NCBI GenBank assembly: GCA_046309395.1
Contig: JBKCPG010000120.1
Span: 10 to 64,009, forward strand
Direction of reading: 5' to 3'
Length of the DNA stretch: 64,000 nt
Source of the DNA: Cyanobacteriota bacterium
GTDB taxonomy: Bacteria > Cyanobacteriota > Cyanobacteriia > PCC-6307 > Cyanobiaceae
The notes under the pieces were generated by a model. It did no database searches. It had not been told where the DNA came from and saw nothing but the letters and a program-made list of their open reading frames with translations. Made by a program: the position numbers and the translations under genes. Below are positions 1-13,112 of the stretch, in pieces; within the stretch, counting starts at the first letter, position 1, and each line of letters begins with the position of its first letter.

Positions 1-1097
1 GTCGAAAACAACCCAAAGCTGCGCGTAGGATCAAGATGAACACCATAACCAGAGCGCCCAAAGAATCCTCTCTGCTTGCCGTGCTTGATCAAACCTTCAT
101 CCCATCCTTTATCCGGTTCTCGACACCATACCAACAAGGGCCACTCATCTTTCTCTTCAGTCGTGAATCCTCCCAGCCTTGTGGAACCATTGACGTCCAG
201 CTTGAAGCGAGGGGTGGTCGTTCCAATCCCCACATTCCCTGATGGCATCAAAGCGATATGGTCCTGAGCGTCATTCTGAATGCCGATCGTCATCAGGGCC
301 GACTCAAGCTTGACGAGGGGATCCTCACCGGTCAGATCTGGATTCTTGTCCCGAAATTCGATGAAGCCGAAATCGCTGGTGTAGTTCACCCTGCTGCGGA
401 AGACGATGCTGCTGGCACCACCGGCATTGAAATGGTCCAGCATCAGGGTCCCCGCCATTGCGGAGGCCGGTGTGCCTGTCAGCTCGAGGATGTTCAGTTT
501 GCCATCGGGAGACTTTGTCCCGATGCCAACCTTGCCCTCGCCGTCCAAGACAAGATCCTCATGCTCCCAAGGTTGGCGGATGAAGTACAGGCGGCCCTCG
601 TTGACATGGATCGCCCAGTCCCCATGCTCCGTATCGATGAAATCCAGCTGCGGCGAGAGGCCCTTCAGCGCCACCAGGCCGCCATTGGTCAGGCCGCTGT
701 CTGGATCACGCGGTGAAGGGAACGGACCCTGCACGGTGACCTTGCCGCCCGCCGACCCGCTGGCCGTGCCGATCCCCAGCTGGCCCGTCGCCCCATCCAG
801 CACCAGCGCGGGCCGACCATCCGGGCCGGCCAAGCGAAAATCGGGCTTGTCGCCCGCTCCCATCTGCACCTGCCAGGCCGCCGCCTCCGCCGCTGGATCC
901 GCGAAGAAGCGCAGCACCGGTTGATCCGCCTTTTGCCGCACCAGCCCCAGCGGTTGGTCGGGCAACTTGAGCAGGCCATCATCCGCCTGGTTCAAACCGG
1001 CGTTGATCAGATCGGCGAAATCCATTTCCGTGGGGATCGCGTTGCGCACAAAGCGGGAACGCAACTCCTGGCGGCTTTTGGTGGTGGGTCTGGGCAT
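1..1097 (-). CDS. eCIS tail fibre protein (Afp13/Pvc13-like), partial; continues past base 1
   Basis: Translated by hand from ATG at 1097: MPRPTTKSRQELRSRFVRNAIPTEMDFADLINAGLNQADDG..., open with no stop to the window edge (365 codons), hence missing from the ORF track. The N-terminus matches the Pvc13-type 'LK..F....PT..DF..LI' anchor motif. Three G.(V/L)GIGT shaft repeats. Confidence 0.85.
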   Translation of the reverse strand, partial: MPRPTTKSRQELRSRFVRNAIPTEMDFADLINAGLNQADDGLLKLPDQPLGLVRQKADQPVLRFFADPAAEAAAWQVQMGAGDKPDFRLAGPDGRPALVLDGATGQLGIGTASGSAGGKVTVQGPFPSPRDPDSGLTNGGLVALKGLSPQLDFIDTEHGDWAIHVNEGRLYFIRQPWEHEDLVLDGEGKVGIGTKSPDGKLNILELTGTPASAMAGTLMLDHFNAGGASSIVFRSRVNYTSDFGFIEFRDKNPDLTGEDPLVKLESALMTIGIQNDAQDHIALMPSGNVGIGTTTPRFKLDVNGSTRLGGFTTEEKDEWPLLVWCREPDKGWDEGLIKHGKQRGFFGRSGYGVHLDPTRSFGLFS

Positions 1098-1152
1098 GGC
1101 GGCGGCAAGAAGAATGGGAACCGGGAAAGGACGGCACCAGGAACGACGGATC

Positions 1153-4100
1153 TCAGGCGACCTGGAAATCCAGGCCAACCCTCAACACGCCGATCCCGAG
1201 CCGGAAGGGTAAGGGGGCACCGGCCGACACGAAATCCACCGTGTGGCTCCGGGCGGCGATCAGCACCACGTCTGGGGCGGGTGCGCGCAACACCGTCTCG
1301 TATCCCTCCTCCCGCCCTAGCGGACGCAGGGGCTTGCCGGCTGGATCCACCAGGAACAGCCGCAGCCGCTCCAGATGGGCCACAAACGGCAACGCCTCCA
1401 CCGCCGCCACCAGATCGAGGGCCCGCACTTCGCCGCCTAATCGCACCTCCGCGGCGGCGTCAAAACACCAAGGCGATAGCACCCGAATCACCGCCCGCTC
1501 CAACTCCCGCTCGGCATACGCCGGATCCACTCCCTCCCGCCGGCACACCCACAACCGCGCTGTCACATGCATGTAGGTGGCATTGCGCACCACCGGCGCC
1601 CCTTCGGCCGGGCATCGCGCCCGCAGATAGCCCTCCATCGCCGCCAGCTGGTCGGTCGGCGCCCCGGGGGCGAACAGGTTGCGGGGCACCTGCTCCAGCA
1701 GGTTGGGAATCACCACCACCTCCACTCCCCGCCCCTCTCGCGCCGGCAGGCACACCACCGTATGCAACTGACTGGCGAACCCCTCCCAGAGCAACCGCTC
1801 GTAGTCCCTCGGGGCCAAGGCCCGGCCCTTGTGCCGTAGGTGCTCTGCCGCCCGGATCCGCAGCTCCGCCTCCGTTTCGGTGGCCCGCCCCGCCCGGGAG
1901 CTGAAGGGTTGATGGAGTCCCGCGATCCCCGGAACGCTCTCCTCTAGCCCTGTGATGCCATGGGGCGGGAGCACCTCTTGGCCGCTGGGCGTGATGGCCT
2001 CAGCCTCCACCGCCTGAGCCTGGATGGCCAGGATCGTGGCATGGGCCTCCACGGGTCCCATCAGCACCGCCCGAATCCAGAGTGGATCCGCGTCCGACGC
2101 GGACTCCCCATCGGCCTCCGGCACCACCACACGCACGATGCCGGAATGGAGCAGACCGTCGGTGCCGTCCTCTCGCACCGGCAATGGCCGCCAGCGCCAA
2201 TTCCGCCGCGCTTCCCAGCGCGGCGCTTCCTTCGGTCGAGCCCCCCGGGCGCTTCCCTCCGCCAGTTGAAAGGCCAGCGCCAGCGGTTGACCGGCACGGA
2301 TGTTCTCCAGTTCCAGCCACAACTCGCCGGGATGGGGATGGCTGGCCAGCAGCGGGGGGGCTTCCGCCTCCACCCGGTCTCCGCCCGGAGGGGGGAGGAC
2401 GAGCGGTTCTTCCTCCCCGAACAAGTGCACCCGTAGCAGCTGGCCTCCACCAGTTTCAGCGGTGCTCAGGCGCTGAACTCGGCGGTAGCCCACCTCCAGG
2501 CCCCCCAACAGTGGGGTGTAGGGCTCTGGCAACACATAGTCGTCTGGGTTGATGTCCGCGGCTTTGGCCGCCTTTAGCGCATTCTTGTAGCTCTCTTCCA
2601 GGCTGCCCATGGTGTCGGTTGGTTTCGCGCCGCTCAACGTGTGTGCCATCGCCAGGGCTTGGCGTCCCGCCAGGTCGCTGATCGCCAGCGCGAACGCCTG
2701 GGCCTTGCGAGCTGTGAGAGCTGGATACAGCCCATGGCCGAAATCGGTGGGGGCCAGCCGCCAACACCACATCCGCCCCTGATTTCGCCCATCCCCATTT
2801 CCCTCCGCCGTGAGGGTGGGCCCGGGCGCCAGTGGCGGGAGCGGGTCGCAGGTGATCTCCAGTCTCCCGTTCCCGTCCCCCGCGAACAACCGCGCCGACT
2901 TGCTGAACACCTCGGCACCATGGCGCTCCCGCAAGCTCACGTCGATCAAGAAGTCGCTCTCCCTCACCCGGGCATCCCTCCCCAGACCGGGCCAGCCCTG
3001 GTAGGCCGCGTAGTGCTTCGCCAGATCCGCCGGCGGCTTCACCCATTCCCCGGTGAACCGGATTGACTCCAGGTCGCCCTCCAGCAGCGCTGGATGGCTG
3101 ATGTACAAGTGGTTGCCGACCTCAGGCTTGGCCCCGAACGGGTGGAAGGGCTCACGGGGATTCACCGCCACGCCCTCCCGCTGAAGCCGCACCCCCTTGA
3201 GCCCCTCCACCCTCACCCGCAACTCGGCGCTGGCCACCCGCGGCCCGTCGAAGCCGCGCCATGGATCTTCGCCAGGCCACAGGGGGTTTCGGGGGCGCAA
3301 CCGCATCCGCAGTCGCGGCGTGTCGGACCCCTCCAGCGGCGCGAGCGGCGGATCGCTGGCCCGCAGCACCACCCGCAGAGTGAGCCTCCAGAGGGCGGGT
3401 TTGGAAGACTCCACGGCTCCCACGCTCCCCTTCGCCAGCGGCACCGCCAGCCAGCCCTCCGCCGTGCTCACCTCCACCAGCAGCGCCTGGTTCAATCCCC
3501 ACCCCGGTTGATCGGGCTCCCGGGGCGGCTCTCCGGCGCAGTCGTCGGCCCGCGCCGTCCCCCCGTCCCTGCCCCGCAGGCTCCCGAGCAGCCCATCCCG
3601 CGTGCCCTCCTCCGCGAGGAAACTGAGGCTCACCTCCAGGGTGCGGGTTCCCTCCTCCAGTCGCAGCAGTGGGCTCGCCACCGCAAAGCCGCCACCAGCC
3701 TCCGGGTCGGGAGGCTCCACCGCCGGGTCGGTCCAGAAGCACGGCGCCAGGGTTTGGCCCGCCGCCATCGCCTTGGCGTCGATCCGTTGCTCCCCTCGGT
3801 GCCATTGGCGCCAGCGCACCGTTTCGAGCGGCGGCGGCGTCTCGCCGCTTTCCGCTCGCTGAGCCCGCTCCAGCAGGGCATCCACCGCCGCCCAGCTGAG
3901 CGGCCGCGGCTCCGTGCCCGGGGCCCTCAACAGCTTCCCAAAGCGCTGGAGCGCCTGCAGTCCGCCCTCTGGTAGCCAGCGGCTGAGCAGTCTCAAACAG
4001 TCGTCGACCGAACGGGAGCCATCCAAGGGCCACTCCTCTTCGCCGACCTCCATGGCGCTCGCCACCCCCCTCAGGGTTTCGGCGAAGCCCGCCTCCGGGC

Positions 4101-12419: not shown

Positions 12420-12482
12420 GGAATGGCGACGGTGGGGTGGGGCGGTGGCGATGGCGGCCAACGGAGACCGCGGAGCATCTCG

Positions 12483-13112
12483 TTACTGGTTCAGGGGCAG
12501 CCCCCGCGGTGGGGCGCGAAGGTGAAGGCTCTTTTGGAGCCGAGGTTCGATGACCTCCACCGGGGTGGGTTGATGCTTTGTGGCTGGCCCTAGGAACGTC
12601 AGGCAGTGAAGCCGATACAGAAGGGCGGGCTGCAGGGATGTTTTGAGGGCGCTCCAAATTTCATTCTGCTGCTGAAATGAGAGTGAGACCAATTCGCAGG
12701 TCAGGCGTCGTAGGCCGTTTGGGAGATCGTTGTCCGTCTCTGGGTCAAACAGGGGATGGGCCTGAAAAAAACCAATGACGTGTGACAACTGATTCCAGGC
12801 ATGGGCATGATCTTTGAACTTCGCGACAAACAGCAGCGAGATTTCCAGATGGATGTCCGGATGATGGCGCTCTACTCCACCTCCTTCTCCCGACGGTCGT
12901 TGATGTCGGTTGGCGTCCCTGAATTCGCGTTCTTCCCGCACGTTCACGACCACCATCCCGATGCTCCCCAGGGGGACGGTGAATGGATCCAGCTTGTCGC
13001 CCTCCACAAACACCACCCGATCCGCTGTGCTGCCATCACTCTCCAGGGCGAGGGCTGAGCGCAGATGGGCGTCCACCCGTTTGCGCAGATAGACCAGGGC
13101 GGAGCCAATCAT
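12483..13112 (-). CDS. DUF4255 / Pvc16-like tube-sheath terminator (cap)
   Basis: Start at MIGSALVYL; VVNVREERE, LLFVA, VIGFFQAHPLF, LVSLSFQQQNEIWSAL...PALLY. Confidence 0.88.
   Translation of the reverse strand: MIGSALVYLRKRVDAHLRSALALESDGSTADRVVFVEGDKLDPFTVPLGSIGMVVVNVREEREFRDANRHQRPSGEGGGVERHHPDIHLEISLLFVAKFKDHAHAWNQLSHVIGFFQAHPLFDPETDNDLPNGLRRLTCELVSLSFQQQNEIWSALKTSLQPALLYRLHCLTFLGPATKHQPTPVEVIEPRLQKSLHLRAPPRGLPLNQ

What the first reader, a model, noticed from the sequence alone, without database searches (positions are those of the whole stretch)
1..13112. Contractile injection system operon in a unicellular picocyanobacterium-type genome
The sequence shows an intact-looking eCIS structural operon with translational coupling (TGATG overlaps at 8578 and 9468, ATGA at 6213-6216), next to typical Cyanobium/Synechococcus genes. 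Established knowledge: the characterised cyanobacterial CIS is the thylakoid-anchored tCIS of filamentous Anabaena. Inference: this is a separately acquired system of unknown target (grazers, competitors, or lysis-coupled release), and a candidate undescribed system.
Basis: partly seen in the sequence, partly recalled or inferred. Interest (0 to 1): 0.8.

Follow-up and report, generated by a model that had tools for sequence, protein, structure and literature searches.

The report
Contractile injection system in freshwater picocyanobacterium
A small lake cyanobacterium (Cyanobium-like) carries an intact, conserved and transcribed gene cluster for a phage-tail-like "molecular syringe"; such clusters are common in cyanobacteria, but this branch has unusually large baseplate proteins and lectin-tipped fibres and has never been studied.

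Summary
Window 13112→1 (minus strand) holds 13 intact, tightly packed genes of an Afp/PVC-type contractile injection system (CIS): cap, sheath, three tube paralogues, DUF5908, Cis7, VgrG-like spike, PAAR, a conserved 63-aa ORF, gp25, a 1545-aa Cis11 and the start of a fibre gene.

A 99.6%-identical metagenome contig supplies what lies left of base 1: the rest of the fibre (520 aa), a 1736-aa Cis12 and a tape measure. No AAA+ ATPase (Afp15) lies in the window or within 1.66 kb past the tape measure, where every assembly breaks. Relatives have one there, and the characterised Anabaena tCIS has none.

The host is a Cyanobium-like freshwater picocyanobacterium. The genes are under purifying selection (dN/dS 0.04-0.41). 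Sheath, tube and cap fragments occur in lake metatranscriptomes.

tCIS hallmarks are absent: no fibre transmembrane helix, no Cis19 crown, no match to the Cis12 insert. The fibre tip is predicted to be a TNF-like lectin and is swapped among relatives, which favours an extracellular, glycan-targeting mode.

Verdict: a real, probably functional, uncharacterised new member of a known kind. Cargo, target and release are unknown. Interest is moderate.

The parts
12483..13112 (-). Cis16/Afp16-like cap (tail terminator), 209 aa; first gene of the operon
   Evidence: Pfam Pvc16_N 2.7e-25. Best PDB sequence match is Anabaena All3327 at 4.7e-9, then the AlgoCIS cap. A metatranscriptome contig covers 12647-12847.
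10932..12419 (-). Cis2 sheath, 495 aa; the only sheath gene
   Evidence: Pfam Phage_sheath_1C/Phage_sheath_1. It aligns end to end with the Anabaena tCIS sheath All3325 (1.7e-114); the AlgoCIS sheath scores 5e-108. RNA contigs cover 10979-11208 (depth 70) and 11842-12029. Within-population pN/pS is 0.08.
10403..10873 (-). Cis1a inner tube protein, 156 aa
   Evidence: Pfam Phage_T4_gp19 1.4e-32. Best PDB matches are the PVC/Afp tube proteins (8e-32), ahead of Anabaena All3324 (3e-22). RNA contigs occur in all four runs. dN/dS is 0.04.
9959..10399 (-). Cis1b, second tube paralogue, 146 aa
   Evidence: Pfam Phage_T4_gp19 4.7e-18. It is 72% identical in cyanobacterial relatives.
9468..9950 (-). 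Cis5-like tube/tube-initiator paralogue, 160 aa
   Evidence: Pfam Phage_T4_gp19 7.1e-21. Its stop overlaps the next start as TGATG at 9468.
9325..9468 (-). Cis6/Afp6-like DUF5908 protein, 47 aa
   Evidence: PF19265 DUF5908 on the identical product in near-identical contigs. Its position between Cis5 and Cis7 matches Afp/PVC.
8578..9312 (-). Cis7/Afp7-like tube initiator (baseplate hub), 244 aa
   Evidence: Pfam CIS_tube 2.1e-26. TGATG overlap with the spike gene at 8578.
6731..8578 (-). Cis8 VgrG-like spike, 615 aa
   Evidence: Pfam Phage_base_V 2.4e-21, Phage_GPD and DUF2345. dN/dS is 0.27.
6427..6726 (-). Cis10 PAAR spike tip, 99 aa
   Evidence: Pfam PAAR_motif 8.8e-27.
6213..6404 (-). Conserved 63-aa ORF of unknown role between PAAR and gp25
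   Evidence: No Pfam or PDB match. An ORF of 63-76 aa sits at the same position in all relatives: 69% identity in cyanobacterial loci and 44-46% in Burkholderiales. ATGA overlap with gp25.
5794..6216 (-). Cis9 gp25-like baseplate wedge / sheath adaptor, 140 aa
   Evidence: Pfam GPW_gp25 1.1e-16.
1153..5790 (-). Giant Cis11/Afp11 baseplate protein, 1545 aa. The conserved parts are at the N-terminus (about aa 110-225) and the C-terminus (about aa 1070-1520). An insert of roughly 850 aa lies between them.
   Evidence: PDB sequence matches: Alg11 7.9e-59, All3317 1.8e-40, Afp11 4.4e-28. The AF2 model of aa 180-1100 has pLDDT 80 and shows an all-alpha domain plus beta domains. Foldseek matches only Alg11, All3317 and PlPvc11, over about 420-460 of 921 columns.
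1..1097 (-). N-terminal 365 of 520 aa of the Cis13 tail fibre, cut by the contig end
   Evidence: The full-length protein P0001 is 100% identical over the shared part. It has the GNVGIGT..P..KL shaft repeats seen in Bdellovibrio fibre proteins. It has no TM helix. The C-terminal domain lies outside the window and is predicted to be a TNF-like lectin.

Best explanation
The region is the promoter-proximal 13 kb of a roughly 24-kb, 15-gene contractile injection system of the Afp/PVC/AlgoCIS/tCIS superfamily (subtype Ib-like). The host is a freshwater Cyanobium-like picocyanobacterium.

Shown:
- The gene set runs cap, sheath, 3 tube paralogues, Cis6, Cis7, VgrG spike, PAAR, 63-aa ORF, gp25, Cis11, fibre, Cis12 and tape measure.
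- All genes are intact, under purifying selection, and at least partly transcribed in lakes.

Inferred mechanism:
- The tape measure and Cis7 hub nucleate a tube of Cis1a/1b/Cis5.
- A single-species sheath surrounds the tube and the cap closes it.
- The baseplate is built from gp25 plus the unusually large Cis11 (an insert of roughly 850 aa that includes a domain of about 400 aa, all alpha-helical, with no structural match) and Cis12 (a C-terminal extension of about 1090 aa containing a tandem-duplicated module of about 445 aa).
- Trimeric fibres attach through an almost invariant N-terminal module. They carry a C-terminal TNF-like lectin domain that binds a surface glycan on a target cell.
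- Binding triggers sheath contraction, which drives the PAAR-tipped spike and the tube cargo into the target.
- The particle has no membrane-anchoring features, and its fibre tips are exchanged among co-occurring lineages. It therefore most likely acts extracellularly after release by lysis of the producer cell.

Unknown for this lineage: the cargo, the target and the release mechanism. Relatives encode a DUF4157/eCIS_core protein and often an Afp15-type ATPase just downstream of the tape measure.
For: Gene identities:
- Pfam matches and PDB sequence matches.
- Cis12 and the tape measure lie on a 99.6%-identical contig extending left of base 1.

Host:
- narB, nirA, nrtA, moa/moe, ureC and glgP are on the same contig. 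Their 90%-identity clusters are labelled Cyanobium sp. or Cyanobacteriota.
- The same junction appears in at least six independent assemblies.

Functionality:
- No indels occur in 13 genes across 5-9 near-identical assemblies, and the sheath pN/pS is 0.08.
- dN/dS against two diverged relatives is 0.04-0.41 with near-saturated dS.
- Contigs at least 99% identical on tube, sheath and cap occur in four lake metatranscriptomes. Their patchy depth (sheath 70, tube 19.5) is similar to glgP and nrtA of the same genome in run X1.

Extracellular, glycan-binding reading:
- No hydrophobic helix occurs in any of the 15 proteins.
- The fibre C-terminal domain is modelled at pLDDT 75-94. Its best structural matches are the BC2L-C N-terminal lectin (TM 0.81, rmsd 2.2 A) and the PLTL lectin.
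- The fibre family has an invariant N-terminus and at least six alternative C-terminal domains.
- The same architecture occurs in non-photosynthetic Burkholderiales.

ATPase absence is not disqualifying:
- The Anabaena tCIS has no Afp15 homologue and still assembles (PMC8894136, Supplementary Table 1).
Against: - No Afp15-type ATPase and no DUF4157 effector were found for this lineage. The closest relatives have an ATPase right after the tape measure. In this lineage that position holds a frameshifted fragment of a second sheath gene, so the downstream part has been rearranged and could have been lost.
- No lysis or release genes were seen.
- RNA evidence is limited to assembled metatranscriptome contigs on the first three genes.
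- The lectin assignment rests on a monomer AlphaFold model with a shallow alignment, at 15-17% sequence identity to the matched structures.
- The roles of the large Cis11 and Cis12 extensions are unknown, and they could mediate anchoring.
Confidence: 0.6

Rival explanations
1. The system is an intracellular, tCIS-like or Streptomyces-like CIS. Particles stay in the cell, held at thylakoid or cytoplasmic membranes by the giant Cis11/Cis12 extensions. They act on stress, in ghost-cell formation or programmed cell death, rather than being released as free particles.
For: - The closest solved sheath is the Anabaena tCIS sheath, aligned over its full length at 1.7e-114.
- The gene order Cis11-Cis13-Cis12 is the same as all3317-all3315.
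- Cis11 and Cis12 carry large extra domains, and such domains form the cage and the membrane connector in tCIS (PMC8894136).
- No ATPase was found in the cluster, as in tCIS.
- No lysis cassette was seen.
- A 2026 fibre catalogue notes tCIS-like systems in Cyanobacteriota that may not strictly anchor to thylakoids (PMC12923769).
Against: - The fibre has no transmembrane helix. In tCIS that helix positions the particle, and it was found only in filamentous strains.
- No Cis19 crown homologue was found with any query.
- The Cis12 extension is C-terminal and shows no sequence match to All3315 residues 610-1100.
- There is only one cap gene.
- The fibres carry exchangeable lectin-like, S74-chaperone and tail-collar tips, as expected for external receptors.
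- Homologous clusters with the same giant proteins occur in Burkholderiales, which have no thylakoids.
Confidence: 0.25
2. The cluster is a decaying remnant: a once-complete CIS that has lost its ATPase and effector module and no longer makes working particles.
For: - No Afp15 or DUF4157 gene lies in the window or within 1.66 kb after the tape measure, although relatives have them there.
- A frameshifted, truncated second sheath gene lies in that position.
- No RNA contigs were found on the distal genes.
Against: - All 15 structural ORFs are intact in many independent assemblies.
- dN/dS is well below 1 for every gene tested.
- Sheath, tube and cap transcripts are present in situ.
- The Anabaena tCIS assembles without Afp15.
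- One relative, L023, has housekeeping genes directly after the tape measure yet keeps the full structural set.
Confidence: 0.08
3. The cluster is the tail module of a prophage or an R-type tailocin rather than an Afp/PVC-type CIS.
For: Sheath, tube, gp25, the baseplate-J-like protein, the fibre and the tape measure are all shared with myovirus tails.
Against: - eCIS-specific families are present: Pvc16_N, DUF5908, CIS_tube and CIS_TMP.
- The best structural relatives are all CIS, and phage or pyocin sheaths score only 1e-5 to 1e-6.
- No capsid, terminase, integrase or lysis genes flank the cluster on either side.
- No tRNA lies nearby.
Confidence: 0.03
4. It is an assembly or binning artefact: the CIS belongs to a co-occurring Burkholderiales genome and was joined to cyanobacterial DNA.
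For: - Related clusters exist in Pseudaquabacterium and Ideonella.
- One related 3.7-kb contig is binned as Beijerinckiaceae.
Against: - The junction between the cap and the DnaJ/rubrerythrin/narB side is identical in at least six assemblies from different samples and pipelines, on contigs of 59-111 kb.
- GC content and GC3 match the flanks.
- Cyanobacterial relatives at 53-83% identity sit beside ndhH, relA, moaA and ppa, whereas the Burkholderiales proteins are only 28-57% identical.
Confidence: 0.02

Closest known systems
Anabaena sp. PCC 7120 thylakoid-anchored CIS (tCIS; all3313-all3327; PDB 7b5h/7b5i; Weiss et al. 2022, PMC8894136)
   Same: - The host phylum is the same.
- A single sheath protein of about 490 aa aligns end to end (1.7e-114).
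- The cap is closest to All3327.
- The gene order Cis11-Cis13-Cis12 is shared, and Cis11 and Cis12 are both enlarged.
- No Afp15 ATPase was found in the cluster.
- DUF4157 effector genes lie next to the cluster in relatives of the window system, as with alr3311/3312.
   Different: - The fibre has no transmembrane helix.
- There is no Cis19 crown gene.
- The Cis12 extension is C-terminal, internally duplicated and unrelated in sequence to All3315 610-1100.
- There is one cap gene rather than Cis16A/B.
- The tube protein is closer to Pvc1/Afp1 than to All3324.
- Cis11 is 300 aa longer and includes an all-alpha domain.
- There are three tube paralogues and an extra conserved 63-aa ORF.
AlgoCIS of Algoriphagus machipongonensis (extracellular; PDB 7adz/7aeb; Xu et al. 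2022)
   Same: - It gives the best PDB sequence matches for Cis11 (7.9e-59) and Cis12 (2.9e-24), and the second best for the sheath (5e-108).
- Its Cis12 shares the N-terminal, middle and 'EHLLLRP...ELPAH' motifs.
- Its free-particle extracellular mode is the one proposed here.
   Different: - The AlgoCIS sheath is 692 aa, with an extra domain.
- Alg11 (1050 aa) and Alg12 (933 aa) are much shorter.
- The host is a Bacteroidota.
- The fibre type differs, with no PDB sequence match.
Afp (Serratia entomophila) and PVC (Photorhabdus) eCIS, subtype Ia
   Same: - The component list Afp1/5, 2, 6, 7, 8, 9, 10, 11, 12, 13, 14 and 16 is shared.
- The tube protein's best matches are Pvc1/Afp1, at roughly 45% identity by eye from the alignment.
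- The spike is PAAR-tipped and the particle carries tail fibres.
   Different: - Afp and PVC have three sheath paralogues, adenovirus-type fibres and an Afp15 ATPase, and their toxin genes lie at the operon end.
- Here there is one sheath and lectin-type fibres with phage-like beta-shaft repeats.
- The baseplate proteins here are 2-2.5 times larger.
- No ATPase was found.
Uncharacterised CIS clusters of freshwater Burkholderiales (Pseudaquabacterium pictum W35, locus L009; metagenome contig L018 of unknown organism; fibre homologue in Ideonella sp. DXS22W)
   Same: - Gene order is the same from tube to tape measure.
- Cis11 (1709 aa) and Cis12 (1424 aa) are similarly enlarged and align over nearly their full length (28-30% identity).
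- The fibre N-terminus is homologous (38-41%).
- The small ORF before gp25 is present.
   Different: - Protein identity is only 28-57%.
- An AAA ATPase follows the tape measure directly.
- No PAAR match was detected at this threshold.
- The host phylum is different.

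Membership tests
eCIS / Afp-PVC-like CIS superfamily (core set of Chen et al. 2019, PMC6899500: Afp1/5, 2/3/4, 7, 8, 9, 11, 15, 16) | Tube (Afp1/5) and sheath (Afp2/3/4) homologues | tested here: met
   There are three gp19-family tube genes and one sheath gene. Their PDB matches are CIS tubes and sheaths.
eCIS / Afp-PVC-like CIS superfamily | Baseplate and spike set: Afp7, Afp8, Afp9 and Afp11 (plus Afp10 PAAR, Afp12, and the Afp6-like DUF5908) | tested here: met
   CIS_tube, Phage_base_V/GPD, GPW_gp25 and PAAR are present, as is DUF5908. 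Cis11 matches Alg11, All3317 and Afp11. Cis12, on the flanking contig, matches Alg12, All3315 and Afp12.
eCIS / Afp-PVC-like CIS superfamily | Afp16-type cap (Pvc16_N/DUF4255) and CIS-type tape measure (Afp14) | tested here: met
   Pvc16_N scores 2.7e-25. CIS_TMP scores 2.8e-68 on the gene after Cis12 in the 99.6%-identical contig L012.
eCIS / Afp-PVC-like CIS superfamily | Afp15-type AAA+ ATPase in or near the locus | tested here: inconclusive
   None lies in the 64-kb window or in the 1.66 kb beyond the tape measure, and tblastn with three Afp15 homologues was negative. All assemblies end there. An ATPase is present after the tape measure in relatives L034, L036 and L009. About 27 clusters at 63-99% identity include members labelled Synechococcaceae or Cyanobacteriota. 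The rest of this genome could not be searched.
eCIS / Afp-PVC-like CIS superfamily | Particles released to the medium that act on other cells | not testable with these tools
   This needs EM of supernatants or lysates and bioassays. The only evidence here is indirect: fibre features.
Thylakoid-anchored CIS (tCIS, Weiss et al. 2022) | Cis13 fibre with a transmembrane helix (All3316 aa 122-154) | tested here: not met
   The maximum 19-residue Kyte-Doolittle mean in the 520-aa fibre is 1.53, in a predicted beta-strand region, and no candidate helix exists in any cluster protein. The fibre has no PDB sequence match to All3316.
Thylakoid-anchored CIS (tCIS) | Cis19 crown protein (All3314) | tested here: not met
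   No gene lies between Cis12 and the tape measure. No 7b5h All3314 match was obtained with Cis11, Cis12, the fibre, the 63-aa ORF or the cap as query. The test was by sequence only.
Thylakoid-anchored CIS (tCIS) | Cis12 insert (All3315 aa 610-1100) forming the membrane connector | tested here: not met
   Matches to All3315 are limited to its residues 11-82 and 397-477. The extra mass here is a C-terminal extension (aa ~650-1736) with an internal duplication. Structural similarity was not tested.
Thylakoid-anchored CIS (tCIS) | Two-protein cap (Cis16A and Cis16B) | tested here: not met
   There is only one Pvc16_N gene in the cluster, and the gene upstream is a J-domain protein.
Thylakoid-anchored CIS (tCIS) | In situ anchoring in thylakoid stacks | not testable with these tools
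   This requires cryo-ET of cells.
Prophage tail / R-type tailocin | Adjacent head, packaging, integrase or lysis genes, with the closest homologues being phage tails | tested here: not met
   The flanks are housekeeping genes. Phage and pyocin sheaths score only 1e-5 to 1e-6, against 1e-114 for CIS sheaths. No tRNA is present.

The most novel reading that the evidence does not exclude
This may be the type example of a distinct freshwater CIS lineage exchanged between Burkholderiales and picocyanobacteria. Its marks would be a giant baseplate (Cis11 with a roughly 400-aa all-alpha domain that has no structural relative, and Cis12 with a duplicated module of about 445 aa) and cassette-like swapping of lectin-type fibre tips. 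Abundant lake Cyanobium populations would express it in situ as a weapon or decoy against grazers or competitors, or for kin-selected lysis. The system would work without a cluster-encoded Afp15 ATPase.
Probability: 0.3. Interest if true: 0.7.

Novelty: new member of a known kind. Interest (0 to 1): 0.5.

Why it matters
Picocyanobacteria are among the most abundant primary producers in lakes, and how they interact with grazers, competitors and kin is poorly understood. A conserved, expressed 24-kb injection machine in their small genomes would be a costly trait with likely ecological effect.

Its fibre tips differ among co-occurring lineages, which points to target-driven diversification that could be followed in existing metagenomic time series.

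The system also offers a natural comparison with the Anabaena tCIS. Both are cyanobacterial and share the same broad CIS subtype, but this one lacks the known thylakoid-anchoring features. That makes it useful for asking what decides whether a CIS is extracellular or anchored.

The lectin-tipped fibres and oversized baseplate proteins may interest those who engineer eCIS for delivery.

Tried and rejected
- Exact look-up of the 1545-aa Cis11 found nothing, because the collection holds only a 99% variant.
- The genome-collection scan did not return the window's own genome, only relatives.
- I tried to get past the assembly break beyond the tape measure. All 10 or more contigs stop within about 30 bp of each other. 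Rfam and tRNA scans of that tail found nothing. The cause of the break is unexplained.
- tblastn with Afp15 and DUF4157 proteins from relatives against the window and all near-identical loci was negative.
- I considered the J-domain gene upstream (13409-14275) as part of the system and rejected it. Relatives have relA, ndhH or other genes at that position.
- I looked for nitrogen control, since the cluster abuts the nitrate assimilation genes. No NtcA box (GTA-N8-TAC) lies upstream of the cap. No sigma-70-like promoter or terminator lies between the J-domain gene and the cap.
- An internal-repeat search in Cis11 with default BLAST statistics found none. The Cis12 duplication appeared only without composition correction.
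- The 63-aa ORF gave only insignificant PDB hits.
- Literature searches combining contractile injection, eCIS or tailocin with picocyanobacteria, Cyanobium, Synechococcus or Synechococcales found no study of such a system.

Full report
**1. What is in the sequence**

On the minus strand, a gap-free chain of ORFs runs from 13112 down to base 1. Pfam assigns them as follows:

| Window coordinates | Assignment | E-value |
|---|---|---|
| 12483-13112 | Pvc16_N cap | 2.7e-25 |
| 10932-12419 | sheath | 3.9e-13 |
| 10403-10873 | gp19-type tube | 1.4e-32 |
| 9959-10399 | gp19-type tube | 4.7e-18 |
| 9468-9950 | gp19-type tube | 7.1e-21 |
| 8578-9312 | CIS_tube (Afp7-like) | 2.1e-26 |
| 6731-8578 | VgrG-like spike | 2.4e-21 |
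| 6427-6726 | PAAR | 8.8e-27 |
| 5794-6216 | gp25 | 1.1e-16 |

Annotation of identical products on public contigs adds a 47-aa DUF5908 protein (9325-9468) and a 63-aa ORF (6213-6404). The 1545-aa ORF (1153-5790) has no Pfam hit. By PDB sequence search it is a Cis11/Afp11 homologue: Alg11 7.9e-59, Anabaena All3317 1.8e-40, Afp11 4.4e-28. The last ORF (1097 to below base 1) is the start of a fibre gene.

TGATG lies at 9468 and at 8578, and ATGA lies at 6213-6216. The only correction is that base 1 is not a biological boundary.

**2. Where the window comes from**

The window is essentially a whole 64,053-bp NCBI MAG contig that starts inside the fibre gene. The rest of the window encodes:
- narB, moaC/moaE/moeA, nirA, nrtA-type ABC transporter components, ureC/ureD and glgP;
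- a cyclic-nucleotide signalling trio;
- a 50%-GC glycosyltransferase island.

The 90%-identity clusters of GlgP and NrtA contain proteins labelled Cyanobium sp. and Cyanobacteriota MAGs. Relatives of the CIS genes are labelled Synechococcaceae or Cyanobacteriota. The same junction between the cluster and the cyanobacterial flank occurs in contigs of 59-111 kb from several lake metagenomes and pipelines. A chimera is therefore very unlikely.

**3. What lies left of base 1**

A metagenome contig (L012) has 17 mismatches in 3953 nt against the window, which is 99.6% identity. It continues with the rest of the fibre (520 aa), a 1736-aa protein and a 477-aa CIS tape measure (CIS_TMP 2.8e-68).

The 1736-aa protein is Cis12/Afp12: Alg12 2.9e-24, All3315 1.1e-20, Afp12 2.9e-5. 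The conserved segments are aa 10-99, 367-424 and 569-644.

The third, the Afp15 AAA+ ATPase, was not found:
- It is not in the window.
- It is not in the 1.66 kb after the tape measure.
- More than ten independent contigs end within about 30 bp of each other at that point. The cause is unknown, and Rfam found nothing there.
- That tail instead holds, on the opposite strand, a frameshifted and truncated N-terminal fragment of a second sheath gene.

Relatives differ in what follows the tape measure:
- The closest relative on a single contig (L036, Cis11 58% identical) has tape measure, AAA ATPase, a 497-aa unknown protein, then moaA.
- L034 has tape measure, a PIN/DUF6364 toxin-antitoxin pair, an AAA ATPase, then an eCIS_core (DUF4157) protein.
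- L032, L020, L007 and L010 have eCIS_core proteins after the tape measure.
- L023 has housekeeping genes directly after it.

About 27 protein clusters at 63-99% identity to the L034 ATPase include members labelled Synechococcaceae or Cyanobacteriota. The ATPase-effector module is thus a variable downstream appendix of this family, and its state in the window's lineage is unresolved. The experimentally characterised Anabaena tCIS lists no Afp15 homologue yet assembles particles (PMC8894136, Supplementary Table 1). Absence would therefore not by itself mean a remnant.

**4. Is it functional?**

All 13 window genes are free of indels in 5-9 near-identical assemblies, and the sheath pN/pS is 0.08. 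Against two diverged relatives (44-85% protein identity), synonymous sites are near saturation. Where it can be estimated, dN/dS is 0.04-0.41 for tube, Cis7, spike, PAAR, gp25 and Cis11.

Four lake-water metatranscriptomes from two studies contain contigs at least 99% identical to the following:
- the tube gene (10475-10907);
- the sheath gene (10979-11208 at depth 70, and 11842-12029);
- the cap gene (12647-12847);
- the region just upstream (13327-13548).

In run X1, coverage of the whole window is patchy and gene-specific. Depths on glgP (173, 44) and nrtA (113) are of the same order as on the sheath. This is what RNA would give rather than contaminating DNA.

That fits their low stoichiometry but is not informative. 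Taken together, the cluster is a maintained and expressed system, not a relic.

**5. Anatomy and likely mechanism**

The component list gives a standard Afp/PVC-type particle:
- a tape-measure-templated tube (three paralogues) on a Cis7 hub;
- one sheath species and a cap;
- a VgrG spike with a PAAR tip;
- a wedge of gp25, Cis11 and Cis12;
- fibres.

Three features stand out.

*(a) Cis11 is 1545 aa.* The AF2 model of aa 180-1100 has mean pLDDT 80. It shows an all-alpha domain of about 400 aa followed by beta domains. Foldseek matches only other long Cis11 proteins (Alg11, All3317, PlPvc11), over about 420-460 of 921 columns. Roughly half of the region therefore has no structural relative. I infer that the unmatched half is the helical domain, but the output does not show which residues aligned.

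*(b) Cis12 is 1736 aa.* Its C-terminal extension of about 1090 aa contains a tandem duplication of a module of about 445 aa (32% identity, 4e-36).

*(c) The fibre.* None of the 15 proteins, including the fibre, has a candidate transmembrane helix. The fibre has phage-like 'GNVGIGT..P..KL.V' shaft repeats. Its C-terminal domain is modelled at pLDDT 75-94. The best structural matches for that domain are trimeric TNF-like lectins: the BC2L-C N-terminal domain (TM 0.81, rmsd 2.2 A) and Photorhabdus PLTL. C1q/TNF domains follow.

Across 392 homologues, the first ~110 residues of the fibre are nearly invariant. The shaft modules are shuffled, and at least six different C-terminal domains occur: the lectin type seen here, CTHRC1_C, the Peptidase_S74 chaperone, a tail-collar type, a lectin-like 'WALNNGW' type, and Gly_rich/H_lectin. 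Within the population, the fibre's N-terminal part shows 0 synonymous and 6 non-synonymous variants.

These are the signatures of a receptor-binding fibre aimed at external, variable targets. I therefore favour an extracellular mode: release on lysis, glycan binding, contraction, then injection. The cargo is unknown here, and DUF4157 proteins are the obvious candidates in relatives.

**6. Comparison with known systems**

The sheath aligns end to end with the Anabaena tCIS sheath and almost as well with the AlgoCIS sheath. The tube is closer to Pvc1/Afp1 than to Anabaena Cis1. Cis11 and Cis12 are closest to AlgoCIS. The system is thus a separate branch of the Ib-like group rather than a close relative of any solved system.

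The tCIS-defining features were tested and not met:
- no Cis13 transmembrane helix;
- no Cis19;
- no match to the All3315 610-1100 insert;
- a single cap gene.

The same gene order, the oversized Cis11 and Cis12, the fibre N-terminus and the small ORF before gp25 recur in freshwater Burkholderiales at 28-57% identity. Examples are Pseudaquabacterium pictum W35 (L009), plus a fibre homologue in Ideonella.

Within picocyanobacteria, the cluster sits next to different genes in different lineages. It lies beside a J-domain gene and narB here, relA in L032, ndhH in L034, moaA in L036, and peptidase M32 and ppa in L023. Both facts support horizontal movement and an origin independent of the Nostocales tCIS.

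**7. Novelty**

CIS loci are reported in about 40% of cyanobacterial genomes (PMC8894136, citing Chen et al. 2019). Unicellular strains have been listed: Synechococcus sp. PCC 7336 and the S. elongatus PCC 6301 sheath. A 2026 fibre catalogue already remarks on tCIS-like systems in Cyanobacteriota that may not anchor to thylakoids.

I found no paper on a CIS in Cyanobium-type picocyanobacteria. About 35 distinct 90%-identity Cis11 clusters of this type exist in lake metagenomes.

It is therefore a new, uncharacterised member of a known kind, with some unusual domain content. Interest is moderate, at 0.5. It is ecologically relevant and directly testable, but it will not surprise a CIS specialist.

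Noticed in passing
Beyond window base 1: L012 11226-12812, equivalent to L024 11435-13093: More than ten independent assemblies of this population all end within about 30 bp of each other, about 1,660 bp after the tape-measure stop, just past a GC-rich hairpin (AAAAAGCCGCCATGGAGGCGGC). This suggests a repeat or a hypervariable boundary. No Rfam family or tRNA was found there.
   Followed up: partly
L012 12336-11768, minus strand (outside the window): There is a frameshifted, truncated N-terminal fragment of about 200 aa from a second sheath gene (40-63% aa identity to the window sheath), convergent with the tape measure. It may be a relic of another CIS locus or of a recombination event.
   Followed up: partly
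window ~25100-32000: A 50%-GC island sits in a 64-70% GC genome, between moaC (24470-25051) and glycerate kinase (31997-33157). It encodes two family-2 glycosyltransferases, an epimerase-like protein, a sugar-phosphate isomerase-like TIM barrel, an FAD oxidoreductase and a 549-aa protein with no Pfam match. It is probably a horizontally acquired cell-surface polysaccharide island. Two RNA contigs in run X1 map to it (26449-26687 and 31423-31682).
   Followed up: partly
window 13409-14275 (-) and intergenic 13113-13408: A 288-aa protein with a C-terminal J-domain (HPD motif) and an N-terminal coiled coil lies directly upstream of the cap on the same strand, with no terminator between them. One metatranscriptome contig spans 13327-13548. 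It is not conserved next to the CIS in relatives, so it is probably unrelated, but read-through into the operon is possible.
   Followed up: partly
window 1-1097 and the fibre family (P0001-P0120): The MAG contig of the window starts inside the fibre gene. Within the population, the fibre's N-terminal part carries 6 non-synonymous and 0 synonymous variants. This is consistent with diversifying selection or recombination at the fibre causing assembly breaks.
   Followed up: partly
window 34682-40526 (-): Two paralogous dCache-HAMP-adenylate/guanylate cyclase genes (723 and 730 aa) flank an MscS-type channel with a cyclic-nucleotide-binding domain (495 aa). Together they form a compact sensor, second-messenger and channel module.
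   Followed up: no
window 62001-62287 (+): There is an Rfam hit to the 5' ureB sRNA (RF02514, 95 bits), antisense to the urease alpha-subunit gene (60733-62736, minus strand). It most likely reflects conservation of the urease coding sequence rather than a real sRNA.
   Followed up: no
L032 22692-23451; L034 21504-22179; L007 17306-18158; L020 19469-21136: In relatives, PIN/DUF6364 toxin-antitoxin-like pairs recur between the tape measure and the ATPase/DUF4157 genes. L020 has a DUF6364 gene and a FitA/PIN pair at that position. They may stabilise the locus or its variable cargo end.
   Followed up: no
L008 (JBIPLL010000683.1, 3.7 kb): A contig binned as a Beijerinckiaceae MAG encodes a fibre 75% identical to the window's, together with a Cis11 C-terminus. 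It is probably a mis-binned picocyanobacterial fragment.
   Followed up: no
window 52603-60639 (-): A conserved block encodes a circularly permuted ATP-grasp protein, an Alpha-E domain protein, a transglutaminase-like protein and a DUF2126 amidoligase-like protein, interrupted by glgP (54739-57180). Its function was not examined.
   Followed up: no
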